Of a stretch of 64,000 nt of DNA, positions 30,837-62,289 are shown piece after piece. This DNA comes from a virus. The notes beneath the pieces were generated by a model. The model was not told where the DNA came from. It saw only the letters and a list, made by a program, of their open reading frames with translations, and did not search any database. A program made the translations under genes and the position numbers. Positions within the stretch are counted from its first letter, which is position 1, and each line of letters opens with the position of its first letter. Where the stretch lies: the IMG/VR virus record IMGVR_UViG_3300045988_126281; one strand, 5' to 3'.

Positions 30837-31169
30837 TTATTTTAAAATTAAACCAATTAAAAGACCTATAATACAGCCACTACTTATAATAGTAACTGTT
30901 TTATAAGTCTTTATATTTTTAGAAAGTTTTTCGTTAAGAACTGTTGCATTAGCAACAGTTTTTCGACATTCTCCAATAACAATATTTTGTTCTATAATAT
31001 ATTTATCTTTTTGGATTATAAGAGAATCTTTTAAAATATTAAGGTCTTTATAATATTCTCGTTCAATAAGTTTAGCATTAATTTGTTTAATTTGTTCAAG
31101 ATTAAGAGTAATACTAGTATCAGCTTTTTGGTAAACTCCCTGTAAAGGAATGTGTTTATTACTTGCCAT
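30837..31169 (-). CDS. Lysis-associated membrane protein (C-terminal TM anchor, coiled coil)
   Basis: Probable start MASNKH; C-terminus VTIISSGCIIGLLIGLILK; adjacent to the endolysin. Confidence 0.4.
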   Translation of the reverse strand: MASNKHIPLQGVYQKADTSITLNLEQIKQINAKLIEREYYKDLNILKDSLIIQKDKYIIEQNIVIGECRKTVANATVLNEKLSKNIKTYKTVTIISSGCIIGLLIGLILK

Positions 31170-31464
31170 CAACAAGTTCCCAAAAGTATTTAATACTACC
31201 AGAATCATTAAGATTCTTAATATATTCAAGTTGCATTTCATAATAATTATTTGTAAAATTAATTCTATTATTAATATTGTTAATATTAGCATTAATAGAA
31301 TCTCTTTGATTCTTTCGATAAGTAGTATCTATTTTGGCATTCATATATTTATCTAAATCAGATTTAAGAACTTTAATTGTCCAACCTTGATAAAAACAAA
31401 ATCCAGCTAAAAAGAAAACTACTATGGTTAAAAGTATTAATAAGAAATTCATTTTAATTTTCAT
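31159..31464 (-). CDS. Signal-anchor periplasmic protein, i-spanin-like
   Basis: 101 aa with N-terminal TM helix FLLILLTIVVFFLAGFCFY followed by a hydrophilic coiled coil. Confidence 0.45.
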   Translation of the reverse strand: MKIKMNFLLILLTIVVFFLAGFCFYQGWTIKVLKSDLDKYMNAKIDTTYRKNQRDSINANINNINNRINFTNNYYEMQLEYIKNLNDSGSIKYFWELVDGK

Positions 31465-31465
31465 A

Positions 31466-31882
31466 TTAAAGATGTTTAAGATTATAAAGAAGAGCTTCAG
31501 TAATTTTATTTGTAGGTGTCATACCAAGACTTGCAGAAATAGCTATTGCAGCAGCTGAACAGCCTCTATTAACACAATCATCAAAAATTTCATTAGCAAT
31601 TTTTTGAACTCGAACAGAATCTAATTCAAATTTGTCCCAATATTCTTCTTTATAAATATCTTTGATACAAGCGGTAAGCCAATTATTAGCCTTAAGTCTT
31701 TTATTAATCCCAATAAGACCATTAGTTCTTTTATCTTCATCTATAACTTTCCAAATTCTTGATTTAGGGTGTGCTCTTCGACTAATACCCATATATGTTT
31801 CTCCACCAGCATCATTAGGGTCATTCACATATCCTCCTTCATGAAAGATAGTTCTTTGAAAGGCAATGTCAAAATTAGCCAT
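31466..31882 (-). CDS. Endolysin, GH108-family N-acetylmuramidase domain
   Basis: N-terminal motif FHEGGYVNDPNDAGGETYMGI matches the GH108 signature EGGxxNDPxDxGGxTxxGI. Confidence 0.7.
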   Translation of the reverse strand: MANFDIAFQRTIFHEGGYVNDPNDAGGETYMGISRRAHPKSRIWKVIDEDKRTNGLIGINKRLKANNWLTACIKDIYKEEYWDKFELDSVRVQKIANEIFDDCVNRGCSAAAIAISASLGMTPTNKITEALLYNLKHL

Positions 31883-31888
31883 AACTCA

Positions 31889-32170
31889 TTAACAAATAAA
31901 CCAATCATTTGCAAGAATATCACTATTAGAAGGATTCCAATGCTCTACACAAGGAACATTATCTTCATTAATCCAACAAGAAGAAATAATAGCATTTCCT
32001 TTAACGCTACCGTAATGCTCAGCAATCTTTTTAAGATTAGGGTCAAAACATTTATCAGAAGTAATTAAAAATTCTGGTTTAATCCAAAGAAATTTACCAG
32101 TTCCGTTCCAAGCTTTCCTAGAAACTTGTTCTCCAGCTTTAAGCTTATAAAGTGCTTCACTAAAATCCAT
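31889..32170 (-). CDS. DUF2829-like small protein (Tad2-like)
   Basis: 93 aa; the FSEALYKLKAGEQVSRKAWNGTGKFLWIK ... LANDWFIC pattern resembles DUF2829. Confidence 0.5.
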   Translation of the reverse strand: MDFSEALYKLKAGEQVSRKAWNGTGKFLWIKPEFLITSDKCFDPNLKKIAEHYGSVKGNAIISSCWINEDNVPCVEHWNPSNSDILANDWFIC

Positions 32171-32179
32171 AATTTTATT

Positions 32180-32548
32180 TTAATTGTTTAATGTACGTTT
32201 AATCCAACCTTTATAATATTTCATTTGAGAAGGTTTCTTATCAACAATATCAGTATATTTTCTGATACGTTCAAGTTTATATTTATAATAAAAAGTATTA
32301 GCTTTAGCATCTTTAATTGAATCTATATAAAGTTTTATTTTTTCATCTCTTTTAGCAAGTTCAACTTCATATAAATCTATACAATCTTGTTTAATACTTA
32401 ACTGCCTGTAAAGGGAATCAATAACTTTTGTAGTACTATCTTGATAATTTCTATTAACTTTATCAGCATCAATTACAATAGTTTCAATTCTTCTTCCACA
32501 ACTTATAAGAAGAAAACTGAAAATTAATAAAATTTGTAATTTTTTCAT
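32180..32548 (-). CDS. Lipoprotein, possible outer-membrane spanin
   Basis: Signal peptide with lipobox LLISCG; 122 aa; lies beside the lysis genes. Confidence 0.5.
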   Translation of the reverse strand: MKKLQILLIFSFLLISCGRRIETIVIDADKVNRNYQDSTTKVIDSLYRQLSIKQDCIDLYEVELAKRDEKIKLYIDSIKDAKANTFYYKYKLERIRKYTDIVDKKPSQMKYYKGWIKRTLNN

Positions 32549-33561: not shown

Positions 33562-34188
33562 TTAAATTTCCTCATCAGCATCCATTGAAGAAGTAATAGA
33601 TTTACCACCTCTTGCAATCTGTTCTTCTTCTTCATTACGAAGATTTTCATAAGCTTCTTTAATAGCTTTAGTAAGATTAGGAATTTCTACAATCCTTTTA
33701 TTAACAGCATCAATAAGATTAAGTATAGTAATGATGTCTTCTGTTGTTATAGCCCCATTAAGTTTTTTGTTAAGTTCTTCATTAATTCTATTAGCAGCAA
33801 TAGAAGAAATATGTACAGATTTTTGAAGAGTTTCAAGAGCAACACCAGCTTCAGTTATATTTTGTTTATAATACTTATCGATAAGTTTTAAAACAAGACT
33901 GTCAGGTGTATAATTTTCTTCAAGATTAAAATTTTCTATTGCTTCTTTAAGGCATTCATTATCACTACACCCTTTTTGTCTACAAGGACTTTTTGGGTCT
34001 CCAAGATAATAAATAACTCCGCATTCAGCAATATATCTTTTTTTATCTTGAGTTTTATCTCTGCTATAAAGAGCTAAAACATCTTTATCAAGTAGTTGTC
34101 GTGGATTAGGAGCACAAGGCATTCCTGATTCATCAACACTAATAATTTTATCAATATTTACTTTAAACTTCATAATAATCTTCGTCAC
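33562..34188 (-). CDS. Hypothetical protein
   Basis: 208-aa ORF. Confidence 0.5.
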   Translation of the reverse strand: MTKIIMKFKVNIDKIISVDESGMPCAPNPRQLLDKDVLALYSRDKTQDKKRYIAECGVIYYLGDPKSPCRQKGCSDNECLKEAIENFNLEENYTPDSLVLKLIDKYYKQNITEAGVALETLQKSVHISSIAANRINEELNKKLNGAITTEDIITILNLIDAVNKRIVEIPNLTKAIKEAYENLRNEEEEQIARGGKSITSSMDADEEI

Positions 34189-34717
34189 TTAATGCTTGAT
34201 AAGCATCTTCAACATCTTGCTCGAAAGGAACATAATCTAACATAGACCAAGCAAATAACCAAGTTTCAGCATAAACTTTACCAAATCTTGTAAGTAACTT
34301 TTCATATTTAGATTTTTGTTCAATTCTAACTTTACGCATATAAGTAAGATATTGTCGTTTAATTCTAACTCGTTCAGCACATTCTTCTTTAAGTTCTCGA
34401 TAGAATTGTTTAAAATCTTCACGAGTCATATGATGACGACTAAGAGCAATAAGTTTTCTTTCCGATTTAAGTTCAACAGCAACTTCATTCTTTCCAAGCA
34501 TACCTATGTATGGAATTGCAACAACTTTATTATTTTTAATTCCATCATAGATGCACTCTTCAAGATTTTTAATAATATCTGACATAATTTTATTATCTTC
34601 TTCAGTAGGAAGATTAAGAGCAAGAACTACATCTTTATAATTCCATTTTTTAATTAAGCCAGAATCTATATCTTCATATGAATCAGAAATATCTTGATTA
34701 ATTAAAGGCTCTTCCAT
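34163..34717 (-). CDS. Hypothetical protein
   Basis: 184-aa ORF. Confidence 0.5.
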   Translation of the reverse strand: MEEPLINQDISDSYEDIDSGLIKKWNYKDVVLALNLPTEEDNKIMSDIIKNLEECIYDGIKNNKVVAIPYIGMLGKNEVAVELKSERKLIALSRHHMTREDFKQFYRELKEECAERVRIKRQYLTYMRKVRIEQKSKYEKLLTRFGKVYAETWLFAWSMLDYVPFEQDVEDAYQALSDEDYYEV

Positions 34718-35219
34718 TTAATTGAACTTTAAAAGGGTCTTCAAGTTGGTATCCAATTTTAAAAGCTCCTTTAATAGCACTTTCAGGAATAATTTTAAAT
34801 TCAAGTCCAATAGCATCAAAAGAAATTTCACGAGTAGCACATTTTTTTGCTAATTCTGAATCAGAATTAATAAAATCAATTATACGACTAACATTAGCTT
34901 TAGTATTAATTGGACAATGAGTTGCAAGTTCAATATCACTTTTATTAATAACAAGACCATCTCCTACTTTAAATTCTTCTTTAAAAGTTTCAGTGTACTT
35001 TGCAAGAATAGGAATAACTTTAATAGTTTGTGGTTTAGAATTTTTACCTAAAAAAGCAAGGTCAAAAGAAGTTGTTTGATATGCTAATGCAACAATACAA
35101 TAATACTTTGGAAGTTTAATATCTTTTGTAAGATTCTCAAGAACTTTTGGAGTAATCTCATCAAGACTTTCAGGTACAGCTATTGCAAAATTAGCTTTGT
35201 TATTTACAAGATTGTACAT
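34698..35219 (-). CDS. Hypothetical protein
   Basis: 173-aa ORF. Confidence 0.5.
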   Translation of the reverse strand: MYNLVNNKANFAIAVPESLDEITPKVLENLTKDIKLPKYYCIVALAYQTTSFDLAFLGKNSKPQTIKVIPILAKYTETFKEEFKVGDGLVINKSDIELATHCPINTKANVSRIIDFINSDSELAKKCATREISFDAIGLEFKIIPESAIKGAFKIGYQLEDPFKVQLNGRAFN

Positions 35220-35294
35220 AATATTTTAATGTTTTGGTTTAATCATTTTTCTTGGGTCTACAATAGAACCACCTTCTTTAAGTGTTTTCATAAT

Positions 35295-35771
35295 TTAAAT
35301 ATTAATTCCAGCAGAAGTAATTTCTGGATTAAGTTCTATAACAACAAATTTAGCATCTGCTAAACTAACGTTAGAAATAAAATTATATTTATCAATAACT
35401 TTAATAGTTCCATTAGGAATACATCTTATTATATGTCTATCTAATAAACAATTAATAGCTCTATAATAAGTTGTTTTAGATTTACCATAAAAGTTTACAG
35501 CAGCTTTAACAATCTCATCTTGAACCATTTGTTTATTATTATAAACACACCAATAAATAGCAGTAAGGCATTCTCTTTCAGCTTTAGGAAGTTCAAGGGT
35601 ACAAGTGAATATTTTACAAAGATTAAGAAATTTAATATCTATATCACTATTCCCTTTAGATTTAGTATTATCACAAACAAACTTAACTATTTCTTCATCT
35701 TGAACAAAATGTGAAGATTCAAAATCAGTATAAGTTTTATGACCAGTTCTATCATCAACATTAAGATTCAT
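35295..35771 (-). CDS. Hypothetical protein (first gene of the leftward block)
   Basis: 158-aa ORF. Confidence 0.5.
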   Translation of the reverse strand: MNLNVDDRTGHKTYTDFESSHFVQDEEIVKFVCDNTKSKGNSDIDIKFLNLCKIFTCTLELPKAERECLTAIYWCVYNNKQMVQDEIVKAAVNFYGKSKTTYYRAINCLLDRHIIRCIPNGTIKVIDKYNFISNVSLADAKFVVIELNPEITSAGINI

Positions 35772-35855
35772 TATATCATAACTTTTACAATTTCTGCAAC
35801 TAATATACGCATTTTTTGTAAAAATTCAAATAATGTTTATATTAGTCTTAGTAAT

Positions 35856-35873
35856 CCTGCCTGTAAAGGAATT
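35856..35873 (+). repeat. Dispersed motif copy cctgcctgtaaaggaatt in the divergent promoter region
   Basis: Exact core copy read directly. Confidence 0.8.
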
Positions 35874-35906
35874 GTTATATTTAATGATATTATTATACCT
35901 TATGAT

Positions 35907-36554
35907 ATGATTAATAAAACTGAAATAAAATTTACTGCCTTTAGTATTACTTCTGTTCGTGCTGAACAAAAATCAGAAGATAATAATGCAACTCCTAAAT
36001 TTAGAATTAATACTGATAAAAAAGGACAAATGTATTTTAGAGTTAAGCAAGAAGAATTTAATCGTCTTGAAAGACTTAGACAAAGTATTGCTTGTACTCC
36101 TTTTGAAGTTAAAGATAAATATCCAAGTTCAATGCCTGTTGATACTGTTATTAATGATGGAATTTATTGTTTAATTGAGCCTTATAAATTATTTGAAATA
36201 GCTGACAGACTTCCAAAGAATTGTTTTAAATATTTTCTTATTCTTTGTAAAGAACTTCTTCCTGATACAAATATTATTACTTTAGTTGGAACAGAAGTTG
36301 CTAAAAAATATGGTTTTGATGTTAGTCATATTCAAAACTATAATGCTATTCTTTGTGATTTGCAAATTATAGTTAGAACTGATGTTCAAAGTACTTTTGT
36401 AATTAATCATAATATTATTTATAAAGGTGACCTTAATAAATTTTCTAAAAACTATAAAGAAATTTATAATGATTCTGTTCCAGAACGTATTAATTATACA
36501 AAGATAAAACTTAGTAATAAAAAAGCTTATGTTAACAAGAATAAAACGGATTAA
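35907..36554 (+). CDS. RepL-like replication initiator paralog 1
   Basis: C-terminal TFVINHNIIYKGDLNKFSKNYKEIY is paralogous to MYVVNHNMIFKGNLEKFIATYNELY of the 37587 ORF. Start moved to an internal ATG at 35907 to avoid overlap with the divergent gene. Confidence 0.5.
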   Translation: MINKTEIKFTAFSITSVRAEQKSEDNNATPKFRINTDKKGQMYFRVKQEEFNRLERLRQSIACTPFEVKDKYPSSMPVDTVINDGIYCLIEPYKLFEIADRLPKNCFKYFLILCKELLPDTNIITLVGTEVAKKYGFDVSHIQNYNAILCDLQIIVRTDVQSTFVINHNIIYKGDLNKFSKNYKEIYNDSVPERINYTKIKLSNKKAYVNKNKTD

Positions 36555-36789
36555 ATTTGCCGATGAAGAACAATATGTTATTGAATATTGCATCGATGCT
36601 AATGAATGGAATTTTATCATTAATGAAGATAATGATTTTCCTAAATATTTTAATAATGTTGAAATAGCTGAAGATTATGCACAACAGTTTGAACAATATC
36701 ATTTTCTTACTAGTTATGTTAATAATACAGGTAGATATAATGCTAATATTGAAGAAGAAATTAAAATGATTGAACAAGTAAAATTATGA
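36529..36789 (+). CDS. Small hypothetical protein
   Basis: 86-aa ORF. Confidence 0.35.
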   Translation: MLTRIKRIKFADEEQYVIEYCIDANEWNFIINEDNDFPKYFNNVEIAEDYAQQFEQYHFLTSYVNNTGRYNANIEEEIKMIEQVKL

Positions 36790-37028
36790 AAGAATTTTAT
36801 AAGCATTCAAAAAATTATCGTTGGAGTATCAGTCATATTCATACAAAATGTGCTAATTATAAAGACGATTATAAAAAAGTTTTATTTAAACCTGGTTTTC
36901 GTTGTCATAAATTTATTTTAGATAAAAGTATTGCTTTTTATTTTAATATCCATTATAAAAATTATATTAGTAGTTATATATTAACTGTGCCATATATAAT
37001 AAAAAGAATTAATTCTAACTGTGCTTAA
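36786..37028 (+). CDS. Small hypothetical protein
   Basis: 80-aa ORF. Confidence 0.35.
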   Translation: MKEFYKHSKNYRWSISHIHTKCANYKDDYKKVLFKPGFRCHKFILDKSIAFYFNIHYKNYISSYILTVPYIIKRINSNCA

Positions 37029-37274
37029 CCTCATAATTGTAATAAATATACTATAACACATTCAAGTCGTCTTAGTCGTGATGATTAAGGCGGCTTTTAT
37101 TATGCTTATGAATATATAAAAATAAAATTATTAAAATTATAAAATTTAGTTTATAATAGTCTTAATGAAGATTATAACAAACTTCTGATTATCTTTCATT
37201 AGAAAAGATTAATCTTGTTATAGATGGTTCTGATTAGTGCGCTTGCCCTTGTTCAGTAGCAGATTATTACAACC

Positions 37275-37395
37275 CTGCCCGTAGAGGAATGAGCTATTGC
37301 AATTCCAATTGTTGCTTATGGTAAGATTCATAATGATATTTGTTGTAATCATTATCTTATTAGTGGGCAAGATGATGCCATTCCTTTACAGGCAG
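37275..37395. repeat. Inverted pair of the motif (ctgcccgtagaggaatg ... cattcctttacaggcag) bracketing ~90 nt of non-coding DNA
   Basis: Read directly. Confidence 0.7.
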
Positions 37396-37586
37396 TTGAA
37401 TCCAATGATACTTAGTGTGCCTTTGAACCTAATGTTATTAAATATGTTAATGATTTTGTTTGATATAATACTGGTATATCTATAAGATATAATACTGTCA
37501 TATAGTTAAGTGATTGATTATTAATATATTAGAAAATCATAACTATGAGCTGGAGTTCACAATTATGAATTTTTTAGTGTCGTTGT

Positions 37587-38195
37587 GTGAACTATATCCG
37601 ACAAATTACTATTTTTGTGAAGTATGATTCATTCTTTAATAATTTAATTATGGAGTTTAAGTTTAATAAAAGAGTACTTAAAGGTTATGGTATTAAAGTT
37701 AGTGCTAAAGCGGTTAAAGAAGCATCTAAAATAATGCCTACAACTTTTAATTTAGATTATGATTCTGCTACTAAATCTTGTTTTGATGAAGTTGTTAATG
37801 GCTATATGATTAGTCTTAATAAAGATTATGTTAAGAAAGAACCATATAGTATTATTAGCATTGCTTTAACTTTAAACTTTCCTAAACTTTCTAGACCTGC
37901 ATTGCTTCTTGTTGGTTATATTGCTTCTAAAATTCAATTTGATTCAAACTATATTGAGCTTAAAGAAAAAGATTTTGCTGGATATTCTGGACTATGTAAT
38001 AAATCTTTCTTTGATGGAATAAAAGAACTTGTTGATATTAAAGTTCTCGCTATTACTAATCGTAAATCTATGTATGTTGTTAATCATAATATGATATTTA
38101 AAGGTAATCTTGAAAAGTTTATTGCTACTTATAATGAACTTTATGGAAAACCTTGTGTTGTTGATGAGCAAGGACGTATTGTTATTGATAAATAA
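37587..38195 (+). CDS. RepL-like replication initiator (start possibly at 37650, MEFKFNK)
   Basis: Overall resemblance to firmicute and crAss RepL; paralogous to 35907..36554. Confidence 0.6.
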   Translation: MNYIRQITIFVKYDSFFNNLIMEFKFNKRVLKGYGIKVSAKAVKEASKIMPTTFNLDYDSATKSCFDEVVNGYMISLNKDYVKKEPYSIISIALTLNFPKLSRPALLLVGYIASKIQFDSNYIELKEKDFAGYSGLCNKSFFDGIKELVDIKVLAITNRKSMYVVNHNMIFKGNLEKFIATYNELYGKPCVVDEQGRIVIDK

Positions 38196-38204
38196 GATAT
38201 TGTT

Positions 38205-38405
38205 ATGAGTTATCAAAATGATATTACAATTCGTAAAACTGTTGTTTATAACGGTTATTGCAATAATATAATTAATGATATTAATTATTATAATTATCTT
38301 AAGCGTTGTTGTTATATAATTGGTTCTGCTGTAAGAAATCCTAATAATGCTGATGTTGTAAGTAATTGTAATCTTAAACTTATAGATATAAAATATGATA
38401 AATAA
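38205..38405 (+). CDS. Small hypothetical protein
   Basis: 66-aa ORF. Confidence 0.3.
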   Translation: MSYQNDITIRKTVVYNGYCNNIINDINYYNYLKRCCYIIGSAVRNPNNADVVSNCNLKLIDIKYDK

Positions 38406-38556
38406 AGAAATGATGGGACAGGTGGAATTGATAATTCTGCTTGTCCTATTTCTTTTATTGTTGTTTGTGATGAAGTTTGTTATGTTATTTGTTTTGCTGA
38501 TTATAATTTTCTTTGAGGAAAAATCGAAAAGCTGCTCGCTGTATTATTGTCATAAT

Positions 38557-38700
38557 CTAGTATTATTCTAATACTAGATTATTCTAATATAATATAATAT
38601 AATATATAAATAAATATATAATATAATATAAATAATATATTATTATATAATAATATTATATAAATATAATATTATTATAATGTAGTATTGGATAAAGACC
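38557..38700. repeat. Hairpin ctagtatta-ttc-taatactag followed by an irregular (TA/ATA/TAA)n low-complexity tract
   Basis: Read directly; about 140 nt of almost pure A/T with 2-3-nt periodicity. Confidence 0.7.
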
Positions 38701-39440
38701 GAAGTCTTGGTAATAAAGTTTGTAATAAAGTTATAGATTTTATTTATGATAATAATAATGATTTTCTTATAGGTAAATTTAATGATTTTATTTATGTTGA
38801 ATTTATTATTAATAATATAATTTTTAGTTATAGTAAAAATATAATTGAAATATAAGATAAAGTTTATTATAAAATTTATATTAGATTTGAAGTTATTGAT
38901 ATTATTAAAATTAATGTTAAAAATAGAATTAAAAGAAGTAATCATTTTATAGAAGGTAGTTAATGTAATTGAATTTAAATAAATGGTGTTATTATTAAAT
39001 ATTTTATTATTGATGGAAAATGATATAATCATAGTGCTAATAAAATTTATAATATTTATAATAAAAATATTGTTTTTCTTTGTAATGAAAATGGACATAA
39101 TGATAGAATTAGTCTTTTGTGTGTAAGATAAGATTATATTATAGGAAATGATATTGTTGAAATTTGTGTTTAATTTTGTTGTCAAATTGGTTATAAAGTT
39201 AATAGAAGTAATATTTATTTTTATTGTGTTGTTATTAATAGTGAAGATTATTATAGGCGGAATAAATATATTATTGTTAAAGGTGGCCACCTTATAAGAA
39301 ATTACATTGTTGAATTTAATAATGTAAAATTAAATATAATTATTAATTTTATTGCAATAAGAAATATTAATTGTTTTATTGCTATGAATGATTGTGCTGA
39401 TTATTATGAAATTAAATATATAGTGTGAGTTTAGTTTATT
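38700..39440 (+). other. Non-coding, C-depleted region (about 2% C against about 15% G on the + strand)
   Basis: About 16 C in about 740 nt counted by eye. Contains GGTGGCCACC palindrome and GGCCACCTTATA[AG]GAA direct repeats at 39285 and 39453. Confidence 0.6.
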
Positions 39441-39519
39441 TGTGTAAGACTGGGCCACCTTATAGGAAGCCCCGGGTGCTTCAATAAGACTTGAAGTCCC
39501 CCGTCAACTTCCATGTGAA

Positions 39520-39529
39520 AACCTCAAAC
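39520..39529 (+). promoter_or_regulatory. Candidate promoter box AACCTCAAAC (copy 1) with downstream TATTATA...TTGG
   Basis: One of four + strand copies, all upstream of GC-enriched genes. Confidence 0.4.
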
Positions 39530-39643
39530 TTGGCTACTATTATATTCTTGGAATTACTGAAATAATTAATTCTATCACATCAGATGATGATACTTATTCT
39601 GATGTTGATGTTTCTTTCGTATCTACTAAATCAAGTTTATCTT

Positions 39644-40117
39644 ATGAAAACTCTTGATTCTCTAACAGTTGCTCTTGCTGAAGGCACAAGAGTTACTGTT
39701 CGTAATGGCAAACTCTTTGTCATTACTAATGCCGAACTGCCTTCTGTTAATGACACTATTTGTACTGCGTTTCTTGATAAGAAGCAGTTTGTGTCTGCTC
39801 TTCTTAAGCACAGTGGTGCTTCCAAGTTTGTTAATGACAAACTCATAGAGGAGCTTGATGTCAAAGTTGGGGACAATTATGTCACTAAACGTGTGTACAA
39901 CGACTATGCTGTTGCTTACGCTGCATCTCATTGCTCCTATGTTCTTCAGCCTACTCTTATGGAAGCTGGAGATACTTATGACAAAGCAAACGGAGAACTT
40001 GGAGTTATCGAAACAAGTTATATCAAGTTTGACATTGTTAGTGTTGAACCTGATGAAGCTATGTCTGCTGCACTTACTAAGTATGCGGCTGCCGAACGTG
40101 ATTTCTTCGGATTCTAA
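39644..40117 (+). CDS. Hypothetical protein, GC-enriched codon usage, C-terminal ...ERDFFGF
   Basis: Start MKTLDSL; clean 158-aa ORF with composition distinct from the AT-rich neighbours. Confidence 0.6.
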   Translation: MKTLDSLTVALAEGTRVTVRNGKLFVITNAELPSVNDTICTAFLDKKQFVSALLKHSGASKFVNDKLIEELDVKVGDNYVTKRVYNDYAVAYAASHCSYVLQPTLMEAGDTYDKANGELGVIETSYIKFDIVSVEPDEAMSAALTKYAAAERDFFGF

Positions 40118-40171
40118 TGTTCATTTGCTCCTCCTTATCACGGAGGAGGAGCATTTAATGATGCTTTCGTT

Positions 40172-40423
40172 ATGAAAATTCTTGCTTATCTTGTATTTGG
40201 ACTTGATAAAGTCATTTACAATGTGTTTGGAGTTGTTACTCCAATAAAACGTGCTTATTGGCGTCGTAAAGCGAAAGAGATTCAAAAAGCTCTTGATTAT
40301 CAACATAATAAAGTAGCTAAATATAATAGTTATGCTGCCAATAAAATGACTGGCAGGTTTTATGTTGAAAAGTATGGTATAATTGATTCTATTCGTGAAC
40401 TCAATCATCCTGGTAGGATATAG
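40172..40423 (+). CDS. Small hypothetical protein
   Basis: 83-aa ORF followed by a strong terminator. Confidence 0.45.
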   Translation: MKILAYLVFGLDKVIYNVFGVVTPIKRAYWRRKAKEIQKALDYQHNKVAKYNSYAANKMTGRFYVEKYGIIDSIRELNHPGRI

Positions 40424-40427
40424 GACA

Positions 40428-40462
40428 GTTCTGGTACTAGAGATAGTACCAGAACTTCTTTT
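40428..40462 (+). terminator. Rho-independent terminator
   Basis: 11-bp perfect stem gttctggtact / agtaccagaac, loop agagat, then ttctttt. Confidence 0.7.
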
Positions 40463-40466
40463 ACAA

Positions 40467-40476
40467 AACCTCAAAC
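40467..40476 (+). promoter_or_regulatory. Candidate promoter box AACCTCAAAC (copy 2)
   Basis: aaaacctcaaacttatactattataactttggg, near-identical to copy 1. Confidence 0.4.
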
Positions 40477-40572
40477 TTATACTATTATAACTTTGGGTAT
40501 TAATTCGTTCTGAACCTGTTTTGCTTATGATGATAACAGTTGTGAAAACTCTTATCATCATTCTTTTTATAT

Positions 40573-40582
40573 AACCTCAAAC
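40573..40582 (+). promoter_or_regulatory. Candidate promoter box AACCTCAAAC (copy 3)
   Basis: ataacctcaaacggaaacgattaagatattgg. Confidence 0.35.
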
Positions 40583-40825
40583 GGAAACGATTAAGATATT
40601 GGTAGAAGTAATAGTAACAGTTATTTTTATCTTATAAGGTTTTACTCTTCTCAGCGGCCTTATAATAATATTATGAGAAGATACTTATAAACTTATGTGT
40701 GGAATAATAAGTATTAATTTAGAAACACTTATGGTTCAAGTATTGCCTTTACTTGTGTTACAGCCATTATCATGCGAAAAGGCAAAATGGCACTATCTTA
40801 TGGTAGTGCCATTATTTTTTATATT

Positions 40826-40835
40826 AACCTCAAAC
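40826..40835 (+). promoter_or_regulatory. Candidate promoter box AACCTCAAAC (copy 4), ~70 nt upstream of the 40907 ATG
   Basis: ttaacctcaaacatgacaattataatattgg. Confidence 0.4.
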
Positions 40836-40906
40836 ATGACAATTATAATATTGGCTGACATAATGATAAGCATTATGTTAACCATAACTTTAAAGTTTGT
40901 TATATT

Positions 40907-41503
40907 ATGGCAGATGCTATTACAAATGCTCCTGAAGTACAAGGTACTCCAGTTGAGCCTGTTGAAGCACAAGTTGCTTCTGTTGCTCCTAATGGAAGCA
41001 AATCAATTAAAGACATTATTAGTAGCATTATGGCTACTGGTAATGCTGTAAAGTATAGGGCTTGCTTAGTTAAGTCTTGTAGAGTTGAAGAAGAAGATAA
41101 TTATACTAGAGTTAGTATTACTCTTGGTAATGAAGTTACTGGTTTTCTTCCAGATGCTTCTGGTAATTATCTTCCTGCTCAAGTTACTACCGTATTCAGC
41201 TCCGGATTTGCCTTGTCGGCTTGTCTTAAAAATAATGAAGACATAAGTTGGCTTGCCGGCATTATAAACGAAAACCCAAATGCCATTCGTGTTCTTCTTC
41301 CTGGTAGTAAAATTGATATTATTCGTCAGCTTGTAAAAGCAGGTGAAGAGTACATCAATCCTTTCACTACAAAATCAGCTGAAGATATTGTTCCAAGTGT
41401 CTTTGACCATGATACTTACATTACTCATATTGTAGGTATTGAACTTGGTAAAAATGGTTCAAAGTTTGCTGATATGCTTGCTATGAAAGTTATGGGATTT
41501 TAA
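40907..41503 (+). CDS. Hypothetical protein, GC-enriched, C-terminal ...AMKVMGF
   Basis: 198-aa clean ORF. Confidence 0.65.
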   Translation: MADAITNAPEVQGTPVEPVEAQVASVAPNGSKSIKDIISSIMATGNAVKYRACLVKSCRVEEEDNYTRVSITLGNEVTGFLPDASGNYLPAQVTTVFSSGFALSACLKNNEDISWLAGIINENPNAIRVLLPGSKIDIIRQLVKAGEEYINPFTTKSAEDIVPSVFDHDTYITHIVGIELGKNGSKFADMLAMKVMGF

Positions 41504-41542
41504 TCTCATAATACTTATAATGTAACTTATAGATATAATAAT

Positions 41543-41625
41543 ACTGTCAATAGTAGTTTTGTAACATTAGGTTTCGACTAAAATAAATTTTAGTCTTAAA
41601 TTTAATACAGACTACTATTGACAAT
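41543..41625 (+). promoter_or_regulatory. Nested inverted repeats: outer actgtcaatagtagt / actactattgacaat, inner gactaaaa / ttttagtc
   Basis: Read directly; intergenic between the 40907 and 41716 genes. Confidence 0.5.
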
Positions 41626-41715
41626 ATTATTTATATTTACTATTTTTGACACAAACAAACCACGAGTGAGTTTGTTAATAATAAGACTTCTATTAATCAA
41701 AAACAATTTCAAATT

Positions 41716-42363
41716 ATGGCTAAAATGGCTGCTGCTCTTACAGATGAGCAAAAAAGTAAACTTGCAGAAATTTCTGCTAACGCTACTGAATCTACTGATT
41801 CTAAAGAGAACAAAGGTGCAAAACGTAATCGTATTGACCCTGAAAAGGCTAATGAAAACAAAAAGCCTGCTACTGAAAAGCCATATGCTCGTAAACCTTT
41901 TGTAAAAGGTGATGGAAATTACCATAAACCTTTTAAAGGTAATACCGCAGAGAATATAGACGCTATCATTGAGCGTTTTGGTGAGTTTAATGTTAAGATT
42001 GCTACTCTTATGAAGTACAATGCTGAGATTAGACGTTTCACTGCTCTTGGTATTCTTAATTGGCTTACACAAAAAGGTGTTATCAATGCCAAGTCTAAAT
42101 ACGTTACTTTCAAATGGAACAAGTTCGTTGTTCGAGTTGATGGTCTTAATAAAGAATTTTCTTACAAAGAAGATTTCTTTATCAATGCTCTTGTAGCCAG
42201 CTTTGCAAGTCTTGCTAATTATGCAACGTTTATAATTAATGATTTCATTAAATATGAAATTGAGGCTGATGCTAATGATGTTCTCAATAGCACTGACATT
42301 GATGAACTTACCATCAAAGATGGCTTTGATAAGCCAAAAGAGGAAGTAACAGATTCTGAATAA
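41716..42363 (+). CDS. Hypothetical basic protein
   Basis: 215 aa, GC-enriched; the stop codon is immediately followed by a copy of the dispersed motif. Confidence 0.65.
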   Translation: MAKMAAALTDEQKSKLAEISANATESTDSKENKGAKRNRIDPEKANENKKPATEKPYARKPFVKGDGNYHKPFKGNTAENIDAIIERFGEFNVKIATLMKYNAEIRRFTALGILNWLTQKGVINAKSKYVTFKWNKFVVRVDGLNKEFSYKEDFFINALVASFASLANYATFIINDFIKYEIEADANDVLNSTDIDELTIKDGFDKPKEEVTDSE

Positions 42364-42621
42364 ACTGCCTGTAAAGGAATTGCACAATATATTGCTTCTA
42401 TTAGTTCTATTAACAAAAGTCCCACTGATAAAGAGTCTGGAACTAATAGAAGCATTATTAAAACAAATATTATAGATATGATTGATTTTACTAATCCTTA
42501 TGTCTATATTATTGGTATAATTCTTCTTTATGCTATTATTATGATTCTTAAAGTTCTAATAAGAATTTGTGATAAAAGAGCTAATGATAACATTTATAAG
42601 GATTATCCCTCTAAAGGCAGG
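42362..42621. repeat. Motif copy aaactgcctgtaaaggaatt and a degenerate inverted copy tccctctaaaggcagg bracketing ~225 nt
   Basis: Read directly; the second copy has two core mismatches. Confidence 0.5.
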
Positions 42622-42913
42622 AAAGATTAAACTATCAATAAATTTTATTTTCTTATGTTTACTTGGTTTACAGTACTTTGTTACGGTTTATGTACCAAAA
42701 CATTGGATAAAATATTCGGTCTTAATAAAACTGAAGACCCACTTGAAAGACTTGCTAAAATTGAAGAAGCAAATGAAAGAAAAAGACAATAATATGTCAA
42801 TAGAAATATCTAATGATTATTATGCTAATGATTATGATGATATTTCTGAGAAACAAACAAATGAATCAGTAGATGATTCTGACGATGACGCTGCTGAAAC
42901 ATTTGGTTACTAA
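42569..42913 (+). CDS. Uncertain small ORF(s) with acidic C-terminus ...DDSDDDAAETFGY; true start unclear
   Basis: The long ORF form begins in low-complexity sequence that includes a motif copy. Alternative short ORFs at 42656..42793 and 42795..42913. Confidence 0.3.
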   Translation: MIKELMITFIRIIPLKAGKIKLSINFIFLCLLGLQYFVTVYVPKHWIKYSVLIKLKTHLKDLLKLKKQMKEKDNNMSIEISNDYYANDYDDISEKQTNESVDDSDDDAAETFGY

Positions 42914-42973
42914 GGTTGTTTTATTAGTATTATAACTATTACTCGTTGTGAAATGCGTAATAGTTTTCTTTAT

Positions 42974-43127
42974 GGAAGTATCGTTTGAATTGGCAAGACT
43001 ATTAATAAATGAAACAATTATTACAATAGTAATATTAATATTCAAGATAAGTATTGAGTTAGGTTACAAAACTTTTCCGGCCATTCTCATTTAATTAATA
43101 ATATAGGTTCGAATCCTGTTACTTCCA
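42974..43127 (+). ncRNA. tRNA-like element: clear 3' half (T-arm ATAGG-TTCGAAT-CCTGT, acceptor TACTTCC) pairing with GGAAGTA about 150 nt upstream. Possibly an intron-containing or degenerate tRNA.
   Basis: The acceptor-stem complementarity is 7/7 and a D-arm-like GTTT-GAATTGGCA-AGAC is present. The anticodon arm could not be folded cleanly. Confidence 0.25.
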
Positions 43128-43147
43128 CAAATTAAAATTTTAATATT

Positions 43148-43369
43148 ATGAATGACGAAAATAAAAAAGCATTTTGTGATTTAATGTCATTTCAAATTCC
43201 TATTCTTATTTGGATTATGACATTAATTGTAGCACTTAGTGGTGCTGGAAATTATATGAATGCTAATAATATTTCATTTTTTCCTATTGGGATTTTTATA
43301 ATTCTTATTGGAATAATAAATCTTATTGGTATTGTTCTTGTTATTAAAAATCACGATAAAAATATATAA
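43148..43369 (+). CDS. Small integral membrane protein (two TM helices)
   Basis: 73 aa: ILIWIMTLIVALSGAG; FFPIGIFIILIGIINLIGIVLVI. Confidence 0.45.
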   Translation: MNDENKKAFCDLMSFQIPILIWIMTLIVALSGAGNYMNANNISFFPIGIFIILIGIINLIGIVLVIKNHDKNI

Positions 43370-43381
43370 AACTTTAATATT

Positions 43382-43454
43382 GACTTCATAGCTCAGTTGG
43401 TAGAGCATAACACTTTTAATGTTAGGGTCACGAGTTCGAGCCTCGTTGGAGTCA
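43382..43454 (+). tRNA. tRNA-Lys (anticodon TTT)
   Basis: Cloverleaf folded by hand: acceptor GACTTCA/TGGAGTC, D-arm AGCTCAGTTGGTAGAGC, anticodon stem-loop TAACA-CTTTTAA-TGTTA, T-arm ACGAG-TTCGAGC-CTCGT. Confidence 0.85.
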
Positions 43455-43532
43455 CAGCACTAATTCTTTGTGCTATTATGGTTTTATGTGTTTCTCAAGT
43501 ACTATCTGTTGTGAAACACATAGTACTTTCTT

Positions 43533-43619
43533 GCTTTGGTGGTGAAATTGGTAGACACGAGGGACTTAAAATCCCTTGGACTGAAATAGTCCTTACGGGT
43601 TCGATTCCCGTCCGAAGCA
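43533..43619 (+). tRNA. tRNA-Leu (anticodon TAA), type II with long variable arm
   Basis: Acceptor GCTTTGG/CCGAAGC, anticodon stem-loop AGGGA-CTTAAAA-TCCCT, variable arm GGACT-GAAAT-AGTCC, T-arm ACGGG-TTCGATT-CCCGT. Confidence 0.85.
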
Positions 43620-43626
43620 CTAATTT

Positions 43627-43697
43627 TGAAGTATGGTGTAATGGCAGCACAAGAGATTTTGGTTCTCTTTGTAGAGGTTCAAATCCTCTTACTTCAA
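43627..43697 (+). tRNA. tRNA-Gln (anticodon TTG)
   Basis: Perfect 7-bp acceptor TGAAGTA/TACTTCA, anticodon stem-loop AGAGA-TTTTGGT-TCTCT, T-arm GAGGTTCAAATCCTC. Confidence 0.8.
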
Positions 43698-44021
43698 CAA
43701 AACGTTGTGATAACGAATCCAAGATATTTTTCAAAGTCAATTGTTGTCATAGAACTATTAATGAATTTGTAAGTATCCTTTATCTTGGAAATTCAATTAT
43801 TGCAGTAATTGAATTTGGTAATGCTGGTATTAATAAGATTACACCATATCTTTATTAATATCAGCATTATTTTTGTTTGTTATTTCAATTCTTTGATCAC
43901 TTCCTTGGCTTCTGAATAACTTTTATTCTATAAATGATAAACTATATCACTTATAGTAATAACATCATCAGAAAGCCTGTAAATCGAGTAAAAATAATAA
44001 AATTTATAAATTTTTAATATT

Positions 44022-44225
44022 ATGATTATTGATTTTGATGATTATGATGGATATAATATTGCATCAATAATTGCTGATAAACTTCCTAATTTAATGGATT
44101 GTATTACTATTAAAACAAGGTGTAGACAAATTTCTGGTAAAGTTATACATATTGAAAAAGAATATGACACTATTAGAAATTGTGTTAAAGCTATTGTTAG
44201 AATTGATTATAAAATTCCTAAATAA
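44022..44225 (+). CDS. Small hypothetical protein
   Basis: 67-aa ORF. Confidence 0.35.
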   Translation: MIIDFDDYDGYNIASIIADKLPNLMDCITIKTRCRQISGKVIHIEKEYDTIRNCVKAIVRIDYKIPK

Positions 44226-44231
44226 TAAAAT

Positions 44232-44603
44232 ATGATTTGGAAAGTTTACGATAGAACCGATACTCTATTAGAAACTATTGTTTCTAATATTGATTATTCT
44301 AATAAAGATACTATAACATTATCTAATAATAAGACTTATAGTATAGCTTACTGTGATAAAAAAGAAAAAATTATTTATATTGATAGATTAATATCAGAGA
44401 TTGTACAATATTACGATATTCTTACAAACAAACAATTTTTTAGTAGTATTAATCCAAATTATATTCCTAATATTAATGAAAAAGTTGCTTTTACAAATAT
44501 AATAGATACATGTAAAGGATTTGTTGAAGATAAAATTATTGATATTGATGGATTCAATAATATTACTATTATAAAACTTTATATTAGAATAAATAAAGAA
44601 TAA
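44232..44603 (+). CDS. Hypothetical protein
   Basis: 123-aa ORF. Confidence 0.45.
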   Translation: MIWKVYDRTDTLLETIVSNIDYSNKDTITLSNNKTYSIAYCDKKEKIIYIDRLISEIVQYYDILTNKQFFSSINPNYIPNINEKVAFTNIIDTCKGFVEDKIIDIDGFNNITIIKLYIRINKE

Positions 44604-44606
44604 AAT

Positions 44607-44924
44607 ATGATTGAACAAGTTAATCACCCTGCTCATTACCAAAATAATGGCAAAGAATGTATAGACCTTATGGTTGAAAAATATGGTCTTCGTGCTACTA
44701 TTGATTTTTGTATTCTTAACGCATTTAAATATATTTTTAGATGCGGTAAAAAAGAAGGTAATCCTGATTATCAAGAATTAAATAAAGCCGAATGGTATCT
44801 AAATTGGGCTGATAAACATAATATTTTCTCTGATATAGAAACTATGACTAATATTCTTGAACTTCAAAATAAGATTAATAATCTTAGAAGAGATATTGAA
44901 GCTAATGGTTCCAATAGCCAATAG
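44607..44924 (+). CDS. DUF3310-like phage protein
   Basis: N-terminal VNHPAHYQNNGKECIDLM matches the conserved HP.HY...E.ID signature of DUF3310. Confidence 0.5.
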   Translation: MIEQVNHPAHYQNNGKECIDLMVEKYGLRATIDFCILNAFKYIFRCGKKEGNPDYQELNKAEWYLNWADKHNIFSDIETMTNILELQNKINNLRRDIEANGSNSQ

Positions 44925-44944
44925 CAATCCCTTTACAGGCAGGA

Positions 44945-44977
44945 GTGGGTGCGCAAGCACCCACGGTTCTGTTCTTT
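44945..44977 (+). terminator. Terminator: GC-rich 8-bp stem gtgggtgc / gcacccac with GCAA tetraloop, then a T-rich run, immediately after a motif copy
   Basis: Read directly; follows the stop of the 44607..44924 gene. Confidence 0.6.
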
Positions 44978-45030
44978 GAGCAATTAAGACTAATCTCATT
45001 AAACTTTGTCTTATAAATGTTAACAATTAA

Positions 45031-45348: not shown

Positions 45349-45813
45349 ATGCCTACATTTGACCTTTCTCTTGTAAAAAAGCCTAAAATCAAGAGAAAAG
45401 ATAGTTTTAACAAAACTAAAGGCAAATATACTATTATTCAAAGAAATGTTAAAGGTGTTTGTTGTATTACTTTAGAAGGTTTTTATTATGTTCAATTTGG
45501 TGAACATTTATATAAATTTACTTCTGAAAGTTATAATACTGTTACTAATGATTATTATTCTAAACAATTAGTTAATGGTAAAATTGTTCATATTAAAACA
45601 CTTAAAGATAATAATAAGTGGGATGGTGAATATTTTCCATTTGCTCCTGGAGTAATAGTTAAAGGTAATATTGTACGACATAATACTCTTAATAATTATT
45701 TCTTTGATTTAAAAGGAACTTATTGTGATTGGAAATATCTTGAAACAACTGAAAGTTTTAAGTTCTTTCGAGATAACTATGAAACAATAAGAGCAAATCA
45801 AAATAATGGATAA
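45349..45813 (+). CDS. Hypothetical protein
   Basis: 154-aa ORF. Confidence 0.5.
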   Translation: MPTFDLSLVKKPKIKRKDSFNKTKGKYTIIQRNVKGVCCITLEGFYYVQFGEHLYKFTSESYNTVTNDYYSKQLVNGKIVHIKTLKDNNKWDGEYFPFAPGVIVKGNIVRHNTLNNYFFDLKGTYCDWKYLETTESFKFFRDNYETIRANQNNG

Positions 45814-59686: not shown

Positions 59687-59967
59687 AAGATAGACTTAAA
59701 ATTGCAAGAGACATTCAAGATAAATGTCTTATTAATAAAATAGAATGTGATGTAAAAACTAATTTTCATGAAACTGAATCAAAAAACAATAATACATGTA
59801 AGTACCCTAATATATATCCTTATATTTCTATTTGGATACTTCCTAAAAATAAACGTGAATATTGTTCTTCTCTTTATCTTTGGAATGATGATGAAAATAT
59901 AAAAGAACTTGATAAATATAAGTGTTTTATGGATACATTAGAAAAATTAATAAAAGAATGCGATTAG
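59677..59967 (+). CDS. Small hypothetical protein
   Basis: 96-aa ORF. Confidence 0.4.
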   Translation: MDIKDRLKIARDIQDKCLINKIECDVKTNFHETESKNNNTCKYPNIYPYISIWILPKNKREYCSSLYLWNDDENIKELDKYKCFMDTLEKLIKECD

Positions 59968-62246: not shown

Positions 62247-62289
62247 AGGTGCTATTGATGTTTCAGATTGTCATTCTTCAAGAGAAGTT

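What the first reader, a model, noticed from the sequence alone, without database searches (positions are those of the whole stretch)
31889..32170. DUF2829-like (Tad2-like) small protein beside the lysis cassette: candidate anti-defence gene
The 93-aa protein has the N-terminal FSEAL..LK.G..V.R..WNG pattern and the C-terminal ...DW..I/V ending that I associate with DUF2829. This fold is reported for Thoeris anti-defence protein Tad2, which sequesters cyclic-ADPR signals. If correct, this phage may counter Thoeris-like signalling immunity in Bacteroidales.
Basis: partly seen in the sequence, partly recalled or inferred. Interest (0 to 1): 0.55.

Follow-up and report, generated by a model that had tools for sequence, protein, structure and literature searches.

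The report
Tad2-like signal sponge in crAss-like phage
A 93-residue gene beside the lysis genes of a crAss-like gut phage is a clear member of the Tad2 family, small phage proteins that soak up the alarm molecules of bacterial TIR/Thoeris immunity. This is a sound but fairly routine family assignment, and which molecule it binds is still unknown.

Summary
Window 31889..32170 (-) is a 93-aa ORF with the stated N- and C-terminal motifs. It matches Pfam PF11195 (Tad2-like, formerly DUF2829) end to end at E=1.3e-17, 64.5 bits against a cut-off of 25.

An AlphaFold2 model (pLDDT 91.6) matches only solved Tad2 structures in the PDB. All 24 hits with E<=1e-3 are SptTad2, HgmTad2/AcrIIA7, ModTad2 or SPO1 Tad2, and the next hit has E=1.

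The residues that hold the ADP-ribose signal in SPO1 Tad2 and HgmTad2 are kept: W21, N22, G23, W78, S81, S83, D84. The gene is under purifying selection (dN/dS 0.15-0.33). It keeps the same slot (lipoprotein | Tad2 | GH108 endolysin) in related crAss-like contigs.

The most likely function is a homo-oligomeric sponge for a TIR-made ADPR-derived signal. The ligand is not resolved, because the His-ADPR binder ModTad2 keeps the same core residues. The cyclic-dinucleotide pocket of HgmTad2 is not conserved.

The clade is at most 46% identical to any other cluster. It carries rare substitutions on the adenine wall of the pocket (W66, N68, H77, N79).

Verdict: a new member of a known family, of modest interest.

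The parts
31889..32170 (-). Tad2-like (PF11195/DUF2829) gene, 93 aa, single domain, soluble and acidic (pI 5.6)
   Evidence: ORF. Pfam 64.5 bits, E=1.3e-17. PDB sequence hits to HgmTad2, SPO1 Tad2, ModTad2 and SptTad2. AF2 model pLDDT 91.6. Foldseek finds only Tad2 structures. dN/dS 0.15-0.33. No TM segment and net charge -2.4.
32102..32110 (-). Codons for W21-N22-G23, the 'WNG' loop. It corresponds to SPO1 W25/N26 and HgmTad2 W21/N22/G23, which contact the diphosphate and riboses of gcADPR.
   Evidence: Sequence read directly. Residue roles come from 10.1101/2023.05.01.538930 and PMC10680739. Among 149 representatives: W 148/149, N 126/149, G 125/149.
31919..31939 (-). Codons for W78-N-P-S81-N-S83-D84, the second half of the signal pocket. 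It corresponds to SPO1 W73/S76/T78/D79 and HgmTad2 W87/S90/T92/D93.
   Evidence: Sequence read directly. Alignments. HgmTad2 S90A/T92A/D93A and W21A/N22A lose gcADPR binding.
31991..32077 (-). Residues 32-60, the variable insertion between beta2 and the core strand (29 residues, with a predicted helix at 44-53). In HgmTad2 the corresponding region builds the second, cyclic-dinucleotide pocket.
   Evidence: Insertion length is 29, against 24 in SPO1 and ModTad2 and 41 in HgmTad2. Secondary structure from the model. Allelic variation clusters in residues 32-50: 10/19 against 14/74 positions, Fisher p=0.006.
31466..31882 (-). Context: GH108 endolysin, 6 nt downstream of the Tad2 stop
   Evidence: PF05838 E=4.4e-22; phrog_315 endolysin.
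32180..32548 (-). Context: 122-aa predicted lipoprotein (MKKLQILLIFSFLLISC...), 9 nt upstream of the Tad2 start. Its C-terminus has a weak match to PG_binding_3.
   Evidence: ORF and sequence. PF09374 at 23.3 bits, just under the cut-off of 24.6.

Best explanation
The gene encodes a Tad2-family 'sponge'. It is a small cytoplasmic protein that, by homology, assembles into a homotetramer. Its inter-subunit pockets would be built from the WNG loop (W21/N22/G23) and the W78-x-x-S81-x-S83-D84 segment. These pockets would capture an ADP-ribose-derived second messenger made by a host TIR-domain (Thoeris-type) sensor during infection. The downstream effector would then never be activated, and the crAss-like phage would complete its cycle. 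Shown here: the ORF, family membership, the fold, conservation of the pocket core, purifying selection, and conserved synteny. Inferred: tetramerisation, the identity of the ligand (3'cADPR or 2'cADPR most likely), and inhibition of a Bacteroidales Thoeris system.
For: Pfam PF11195 full-length hit at 64.5 bits.

phmmer against the PDB finds HgmTad2/AcrIIA7 (1e-9), SPO1 Tad2 (1.9e-8), ModTad2 and SptTad2.

The AF2 model has pLDDT 91.6 and the helix, beta-sheet, short-helices order described for Tad2. Foldseek against the PDB returns 24 hits with E<=1e-3, all of them Tad2 structures with TM up to 0.73; the next hit has E=1.

Pocket residues W21, N22, W78, S81 and D84 are invariant in a 45-sequence alignment. 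Across 275 aligned family members they are kept in 88-99% of sequences (W21 273, N22 252, W78 257, S81 241, D84 262 of 275). These are the residues that contact gcADPR in SPO1 Tad2, and whose mutation abolishes gcADPR binding in HgmTad2.

dN/dS is 0.15-0.33 among four alleles. The slot between the lipoprotein and GH108 is the same in six related contigs.

The protein is acidic and has no TM segment, like SPO1 Tad2 and ModTad2.

Targets plausibly exist in the host group. Gut Bacteroides TIR domains produce v-cADPR-x and cADPR (PMC9092222). AbTir-type v-cADPR is 2'cADPR. Type V Thoeris, which signals with 3'cADPR, is reported as especially enriched in Bacteroidota. HgmTad2 itself is described as encoded by Bacteroides phages.
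Against: The conserved core residues are equally conserved in ModTad2, which binds His-ADPR and does not inhibit type I Thoeris. They therefore do not identify the ligand.

The protein is only 27-37% identical to every experimentally tested Tad2.

Several positions lining the adenine side of the pocket carry residues that are rare in the family: W66 in 1/149 representatives, N68 in 2/149, E76 and H77 in 0/149, N79 in 3/149. This could change or weaken binding.

The gene sits in a tight array with lysis and packaging genes rather than in an obvious early region. No separate promoter or terminator could be identified. Expression timing is therefore unknown.

The host of this particular phage was not determined.
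Confidence: 0.8

Rival explanations
1. It is a dual-specificity sponge. Besides the ADPR-signal pocket, the 29-residue insertion would form a second pocket at the dimer interface that sequesters a cyclic nucleotide. HgmTad2 and SptTad2 do this with cGG/cGAMP, and ModTad2 does it with cUMP/cCMP. This adds to the best explanation rather than replacing it.
For: Second pockets at the A-C interface are documented for both long-insertion (HgmTad2) and short-insertion (MoTad2) family members. Amino-acid variation among the crAss-clade alleles is concentrated in residues 32-50 of the insertion (10/19 against 14/74 positions, p=0.006), which fits an evolving ligand or interface surface. Bacteroides encode cGG-producing CBASS, according to PMC10680739.
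Against: The insertion is 29 residues, not the 35-41 reported for CDN binders. The HgmTad2 CDN contacts are not kept in either alignment: S47 becomes C41 or a gap, F70 becomes S63 or G58, N85 becomes E76, and D34/L36 are deleted or changed. The 'VKSLP' loop is absent. The residues of the MoTad2 cUMP pocket are not given in the text I could read, so that pocket could not be tested.
Confidence: 0.2
2. It is an anti-CRISPR of the AcrIIA7 type. The tetramer's basic groove would bind tracrRNA and prevent assembly of the Cas9 RNP.
For: The best PDB sequence hits are the AcrIIA7 entries 8kbi and 9kzr. A 2026 paper reports tracrRNA binding by head-less AcrIIA7 through K58, K66, K71, K93 and R101 (PMC13133391). 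The equivalents of K58, K66 and R101 are K11, K19 and K48 here (numbering derived from P0023).
Against: The K71 equivalent, whose mutation abolished RNA binding, is T24 here. The K93 loop is deleted or realigned. The protein is acidic (pI 5.6, net charge -2.4), whereas HgmTad2/AcrIIA7 has pI 7.9. An independent study found no Cas9 inhibition by HgmTad2 in vitro or in vivo. The reported activity needs micromolar protein pre-incubated with the RNA.
Confidence: 0.04
3. It is a lysis-cassette accessory protein, such as a regulator or partner of the GH108 endolysin, or a DUF2829 protein with some function unrelated to immune signals.
For: It is tightly packed between a lipoprotein and the endolysin, with gaps of 9 and 6 nt. 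A DUF2829 gene also sits directly upstream of GH108 in two more distant crAss-like contigs. PHROGs labels the matching families 'unknown function', and one of them 'transcriptional regulator'.
Against: It has no signal peptide or TM segment. The sponge pocket residues are fully conserved. In the related phage ctbg_1 the DUF2829 gene lies elsewhere, upstream of the nuclease, so linkage to the endolysin is not obligatory. No DUF2829 member is known to act in lysis (my own knowledge, consistent with the papers read here).
Confidence: 0.04

Closest known systems
SPO1 Tad2 (gp34.65; PDB 8SME/8SMF/8SMG)
   Same: Single-domain protein of about 90 aa, 37% identical over the full length. Same fold. W25/N26/W73/S76/T78/D79 correspond to W21/N22/W78/S81/S83/D84. 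Both are acidic.
   Different: The insertion is 29 residues against 24. The adenine contacts I63 and T65 are W66 and N68 here. The host phylum and phage type differ (Bacillus myovirus against a crAss-like podovirus).
HgmTad2 / AcrIIA7 (PDB 8KBI-8KBM, 8WJC, 9KZR), from Bacteroides/Phocaeicola phages or prophages
   Same: Best sequence hit in the PDB (E=1e-9) and a structural match at TM 0.70. The gcADPR-site residues W21/N22/G23, W87, S90 and D93 are kept. It comes from the same host order.
   Different: 31-32% identity. HgmTad2 has a 41-residue insertion that forms a cGG/cGAMP pocket (S47, F70, R31/N85), which is not conserved here. HgmTad2 is the C-terminal part of a 150-aa protein with an N-terminal head domain. 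The window protein has no such extension.
ModTad2 / MoTad2 (PDB 8V3E, 9EIB), Myroides odoratus prophage
   Same: 33% identity, the same fold (TM 0.66-0.68) and the same conserved core residues. The host is also in Bacteroidota.
   Different: ModTad2 binds His-ADPR (type II Thoeris) and cUMP/cCMP, and does not block type I Thoeris. The residues that set this specificity are not available to me, so I cannot say which ligand class the window protein follows.
Divergent DUF2829 proteins of other crAss-like phages (ctbg_1 AXH74485.1; L010 3644-3997; L011 1160-1495)
   Same: Same Pfam family, and the same or a neighbouring genome slot in related Crassvirales.
   Different: They align with the window protein only over about 20 N-terminal residues by BLASTP. 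They have lost the WNG loop and W78, and they carry a long 'IIPKMTSL' insertion. They represent a different subfamily and probably a different ligand.

Membership tests
Tad2-like / DUF2829 (Pfam PF11195) | Profile HMM score above the curated gathering threshold over the whole domain | tested here: met
   64.5 bits against 25, E=1.3e-17, residues 1-92 on profile 1-72/73. Precomputed PF11195 on all close homologues.
Tad2-like / DUF2829 (Pfam PF11195) | Tad2 fold: N-terminal helix, antiparallel beta-sheet, short helices in the loops | tested here: met
   AF2 pLDDT 91.6, with elements H3-11, E16-18, E27-31, E34-37, H44-53, E55-58, E61-67, E73-77, H82-86, E90-92. All 24 Foldseek PDB hits with E<=1e-3 are Tad2 structures.
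Tad2 signal sponge (functional class) | Conserved ADPR-signal pocket residues (SPO1 W25, N26, W73, S76, T78, D79; HgmTad2 W21, N22, G23, W87, S90, T92, D93) | tested here: met
   The query has W21, N22, G23, W78, S81, S83 (Ser for Thr) and D84.
Tad2 signal sponge (functional class) | Homotetramer with pockets formed between protomers | not testable with these tools
   Only monomer prediction was available. Tetramers are reported for SPO1 Tad2, HgmTad2, ModTad2 and AcrIIA7.
Tad2 signal sponge (functional class) | High-affinity binding of a TIR-derived signal and inhibition of Thoeris defence | not testable with these tools
   Needs biochemistry or phage assays.
HgmTad2/SptTad2-type dual sponge (gcADPR plus cyclic dinucleotide) | Insertion of 35-41 residues between beta2 and beta5, forming the CDN cavity | tested here: not met
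   The insertion is 29 residues, against 41 in HgmTad2 by the same measure. The criterion comes from PMC10680739.
HgmTad2/SptTad2-type dual sponge (gcADPR plus cyclic dinucleotide) | CDN-contact residues S47, F70 and R31/N85, whose mutation abolishes cGG/cGAMP binding | tested here: not met
   R31 becomes K31, which is conservative. S47 becomes C41 or a gap, F70 becomes S63 or G58, and N85 becomes E76, in both the phmmer and MAFFT alignments.
AcrIIA7 (tracrRNA-binding anti-CRISPR) | Basic groove residues K58, K66, K71, K93 and R101 (pdAcrIIA7 numbering) | tested here: inconclusive
   The equivalents are K11, K19, T24 (lost), a deleted or shifted loop, and K48. The overall charge is acidic, pI 5.6 against 7.9.
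ModTad2-type (His-ADPR / type II Thoeris sponge) | Residues that select His-ADPR over gcADPR | not tested
   The determinants are not stated in the texts available to me. Identity to ModTad2 is 33%, no closer than to the type I inhibitors.

The most novel reading that the evidence does not exclude
The crAss-clade Tad2 keeps the ribose/phosphate-binding core but has a rebuilt adenine wall. W66, N68, E76, H77, N79 and N82 are each present in 0-3 of 149 non-redundant relatives, and most are invariant within the clade. It also has an intermediate, fast-varying 29-residue insertion. This could mean it is tuned to a TIR product that no Tad2 has been shown to sequester, for example the canonical cADPR that several Bacteroides TIR domains make, or an undescribed Bacteroidales signal. 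The insertion might form a new second pocket.
Probability: 0.15. Interest if true: 0.6.

Novelty: new member of a known kind. Interest (0 to 1): 0.3.

Why it matters
crAss-like phages are the most abundant phages of the human gut, and very little is known about how they evade Bacteroidales immunity. A canonical Tad2 sponge conserved in one crAss-like lineage would imply that TIR/Thoeris-type signalling immunity exerts real selective pressure on these phages. A divergent DUF2829 subtype sits in the same slot in related lineages. Together they give two natural variants whose ligand preferences could be compared. In practice it is a small, easily expressed protein that could serve as a probe for the signalling molecules made by Bacteroidales TIR systems. 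The assignment itself follows from a standard Pfam scan, so the advance is incremental.

Tried and rejected
- **Word-indexed protein search.** Searching with the single sequence found only 6 close relatives. I had to seed a profile with PDB-derived Tad2 sequences to get an alignment deep enough for structure prediction.
- **Literature searches.** Searching 'crAss' plus 'Tad2' was swamped by Neurospora crassa/ADAT Tad2 papers. 'DUF2829' plus 'crAss' returned nothing. A broader search returned only general crAss papers. I therefore found no prior description, but this is not proof of absence.
- **Placement among the 18 Tad2 homologues with measured specificities (PMC12393519).** No supplementary files are held for that paper, so this could not be done. 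Only the six homologues from 10.1101/2023.05.01.538930 plus HgmTad2 could be compared. The query is about equally distant from all of them (24-37%), so phylogenetic transfer of specificity was rejected.
- **Promoter/terminator scan of 30.5-36.5 kb.** It found no more sites than shuffled sequence, and no terminator flanks the gene. It is uninformative for expression timing.
- **NCBIfam.** No model matches the protein.
- **Orthology with the DUF2829 protein of the nearest GenBank phage (ctbg_1).** Rejected, because only 20 N-terminal residues align.
- **GenBank phages.** No record has a homologue above about 40% identity.
- **Antisense ORF 31769..32068 (+).** Rejected as the coding frame on the family-hit and dN/dS evidence for the minus strand.

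Full report
**1. The observation**

The window has a 93-codon ORF on the minus strand from ATG 32170 to the stop at 31889 (DNA). The product is MDFSEALYKLKAGEQVSRKAWNGTGKFLWIKPEFLITSDKCFDPNLKKIAEHYGSVKGNAIISSCWINEDNVPCVEHWNPSNSDILANDWFIC.

The ORF is packed 9 nt after a 122-aa ORF with a lipoprotein-type signal peptide (32180..32548). It lies 6 nt before a 138-aa GH108 muramidase (31466..31882; PF05838 E=4.4e-22, PHROG endolysin). Two small overlapping membrane-protein ORFs and the large terminase follow the muramidase. 'Beside the lysis cassette' is therefore correct.

**2. What the window is**

Megablast of 28-36 kb hits only crAss-like phages. The best hit is MH616963 (Whopevirus animalis, Intestiviridae), at about 76% identity over the terminase-to-nuclease stretch.

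The rest of the window fits this assignment. A close relative carries a Crass_capsid gene downstream. The plus-strand block carries an SF1 helicase, an ATP-dependent DNA ligase, ThyX and a DUF932 protein. The exact protein is also encoded on a 90,224-bp metagenome scaffold.

**3. Family membership**

- Pfam gives a single hit, PF11195 'Thoeris anti-defense 2-like domain'. It scores E=1.3e-17 and 64.5 bits against a gathering score of 25, and it covers the whole protein and the whole model.
- phmmer against PDB sequences finds HgmTad2/AcrIIA7 (8KBI, 1e-9; 9KZR), SPO1 Tad2 (8SME, 1.9e-8), ModTad2 (8V3E, 9EIB) and SptTad2 (8WJD). Nothing else is credible.
- A profile search returned at least 7,998 PF11195 proteins.
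- An exhaustive phmmer search of 1.84 billion representatives gave 439 hits at E<=1e-3. Only one representative, the protein's own cluster, exceeded 50% identity. The next best are 42-46% identical.
- GenBank phages have nothing above about 40% identity.

This is a distinct small clade inside a very large known family.

**4. Structure**

The AlphaFold2 model was built on a 45-sequence alignment. It has mean pLDDT 91.6 and no low-confidence segment. Its element order is helix, strands, helix 44-53, strands, helix 82-86, strand. That is the architecture described for SPO1 Tad2.

Foldseek against the PDB returned 24 hits with E<=1e-3, and every one is a Tad2-family structure. They include SptTad2 (7e-7, TM 0.73), HgmTad2/AcrIIA7 (TM 0.70), ModTad2 and SPO1 Tad2. 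The 25th hit has E=1.0.

**5. The pocket**

In SPO1 Tad2, 1''-3' gcADPR is held by W25, N26, W73 and D79. T78, S76, I63, T65, D67 and H71 contribute as well. In HgmTad2 the same site uses W21, N22, G23, W87, L88, S90, T92 and D93. The W21A/N22A and S90A/T92A/D93A mutants lose binding.

The window protein has W21, N22, G23, W78, S81, S83 and D84 at these positions. F3, A6, R18, W21, N22, W78, S81, D84, L86, D89 and W90 are invariant in the 45-sequence alignment.

The adenine-side wall is unusual. The equivalents of SPO1 I63/T65 (HgmTad2 M76/A78) are W66 and N68. The family's near-invariant Gly before the second Trp is H77, and HgmTad2 L88 is N79. Among 149 representatives that are non-redundant at 50% identity, these residues occur as follows:

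| Residue in query | Count among 149 representatives |
|---|---|
| W66 | 1 |
| N68 | 2 |
| E76 | 0 |
| H77 | 0 |
| N79 | 3 |
| N82 | 2 |
| T24 | 3 |
| A20 | 4 |

No representative shares three or more of the nine clade-specific residues. Within the clade, W66, N68, E76, N79 and N82 are invariant. H77 varies in one allele, to Asn.

**6. The second pocket**

HgmTad2 and SptTad2 bind cGG/cGAMP through a 35-41-residue insertion, using S47, F70 and R31/N85. By one consistent measure the insertion is 29 residues here, 24 in SPO1 Tad2 and ModTad2, and 41 in HgmTad2. The HgmTad2 CDN contacts are not conserved in either alignment, so an HgmTad2-like CDN site is not predicted.

MoTad2, with a short insertion, still binds cUMP at the same interface. 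A different second site therefore cannot be excluded. Amino-acid differences among eight clade sequences are enriched in residues 32-50 (10/19 against 14/74 positions, Fisher p=0.006). The sequences are related, so this is only indicative.

**7. Is it a functioning gene?**

Four alleles (the window, L002, L006 and L007) give dN/dS of 0.15-0.33 at dS of 0.2-0.36. The gene occupies the same position between the lipoprotein and GH108 in all related contigs recovered. It has no TM segment and is acidic (pI 5.6), like SPO1 Tad2 and ModTad2.

**8. What it most likely does**

By homology it is a tetrameric sponge for a TIR-derived ADPR-based signal. Plausible targets exist in the host group:

- Gut Bacteroides TIR domains produce v-cADPR-x and cADPR, in vitro and in mice.
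- AbTir-type v-cADPR is 2'cADPR.
- A recent preprint reports type V Thoeris, which signals with 3'cADPR, as especially enriched in Bacteroidota.
- HgmTad2 is described as encoded by Bacteroides phages.

The ligand cannot be named. Family members inhibit types I, II and IV Thoeris, CBASS and Pycsar. ModTad2, which does not block type I Thoeris, has the same core residues. The query is 27-37% identical to every tested homologue.

**9. Rivals**

- **AcrIIA7-type tracrRNA binding.** This is unlikely. The K71 equivalent is Thr, the K93 loop is missing, and the protein is acidic. An independent study found no Cas9 inhibition by HgmTad2.
- **A role in lysis.** Only gene position supports this.
- **An additional cyclic-nucleotide pocket.** This is possible but unsupported by residue conservation.

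**10. Comparison within crAss-like phages**

The nearest GenBank phage, ctbg_1, annotates a DUF2829 protein upstream of the nuclease rather than next to GH108. That protein aligns with the window protein only over 20 residues.

Two more distant contigs (L010 and L011, with GH108 60% identical) carry a DUF2829 gene directly upstream of GH108. It is of the ctbg_1 type: the WNG loop and W78 are lost, and there is a long 'IIPKMTSL' insertion. L012 to L017 have none. The region is therefore a variable slot that has hosted at least two DUF2829 subtypes.

I found no paper in the held library that links DUF2829 or Tad2 with crAss-like phages.

**11. Verdict**

This is a new member, a distinct clade, of a well-characterised family, and a routine Pfam scan would identify it. 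Interest is modest at 0.3. The only less ordinary aspects are the rebuilt adenine wall of the pocket and the coexistence of two DUF2829 subtypes in the same slot of related crAss-like genomes.

Noticed in passing
L010 3644-3997; L011 1160-1495; L001 8489-8794: Other crAss-like phages carry a different DUF2829 subtype of 101-117 aa. It sits directly upstream of GH108 (L010, L011) or upstream of the PD-(D/E)XK nuclease (ctbg_1). It has lost the WNG loop and the second pocket Trp, but it keeps a long 'IIPKMTSL' insertion resembling the HgmTad2 'VKSLP' cyclic-dinucleotide loop. It may be a sponge that has given up the gcADPR site.
   Followed up: partly
window 32180-32548 (-) and 31466-31882 (-): The 122-aa lipoprotein upstream of Tad2 has a weak C-terminal match to PG_binding_3 (23.3 bits, cut-off 24.6). 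That domain normally follows GH108 in endolysins. The GH108 protein here is only 138 aa and has no such domain of its own.
   Followed up: no
window 31159-31464 (-) and 30837-31292 (-): Two overlapping small ORFs with N-terminal hydrophobic segments lie between the endolysin and the terminase. They have only weak hits (Rz-like spanin E=0.004). They are probable holin/spanin candidates and are conserved in relatives (97-101 aa and 123 aa genes in L002-L005).
   Followed up: no
window 31889-32170 (-), residues 32-50 and 83: Among eight clade sequences, amino-acid changes cluster in the insertion (residues 32-50). Position 83 is the adenine-contacting Thr of SPO1 Tad2 and HgmTad2, and it is Ser, Thr or Asp in different alleles.
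   Followed up: partly
P0023 (150 aa, Phocaeicola vulgatus; seen on 856 contigs): In the displayed alignment, the part of P0023 after its 48-residue N-terminal head matches the 8KBI chain residue for residue. This agrees with the 2026 AcrIIA7 paper, which says the metagenomic clone lacks the 48-residue head domain.
   Followed up: partly
window 33562-45000: At least 13 ORFs of 120-270 aa around the strand-switch region have no significant Pfam match, and 10 of them also have no PHROG match. If this phage carries further anti-defence or early genes, this is where to look.
   Followed up: no
window 45806-47269, 57143-58372, 59922-60821, 62209-63246 (+): The plus-strand block encodes an SF1/PIF1-like helicase, an ATP-dependent DNA ligase, a ThyX thymidylate synthase and a DUF932 protein. 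This is a replication and nucleotide-metabolism module typical of crAss-like genomes.
   Followed up: no
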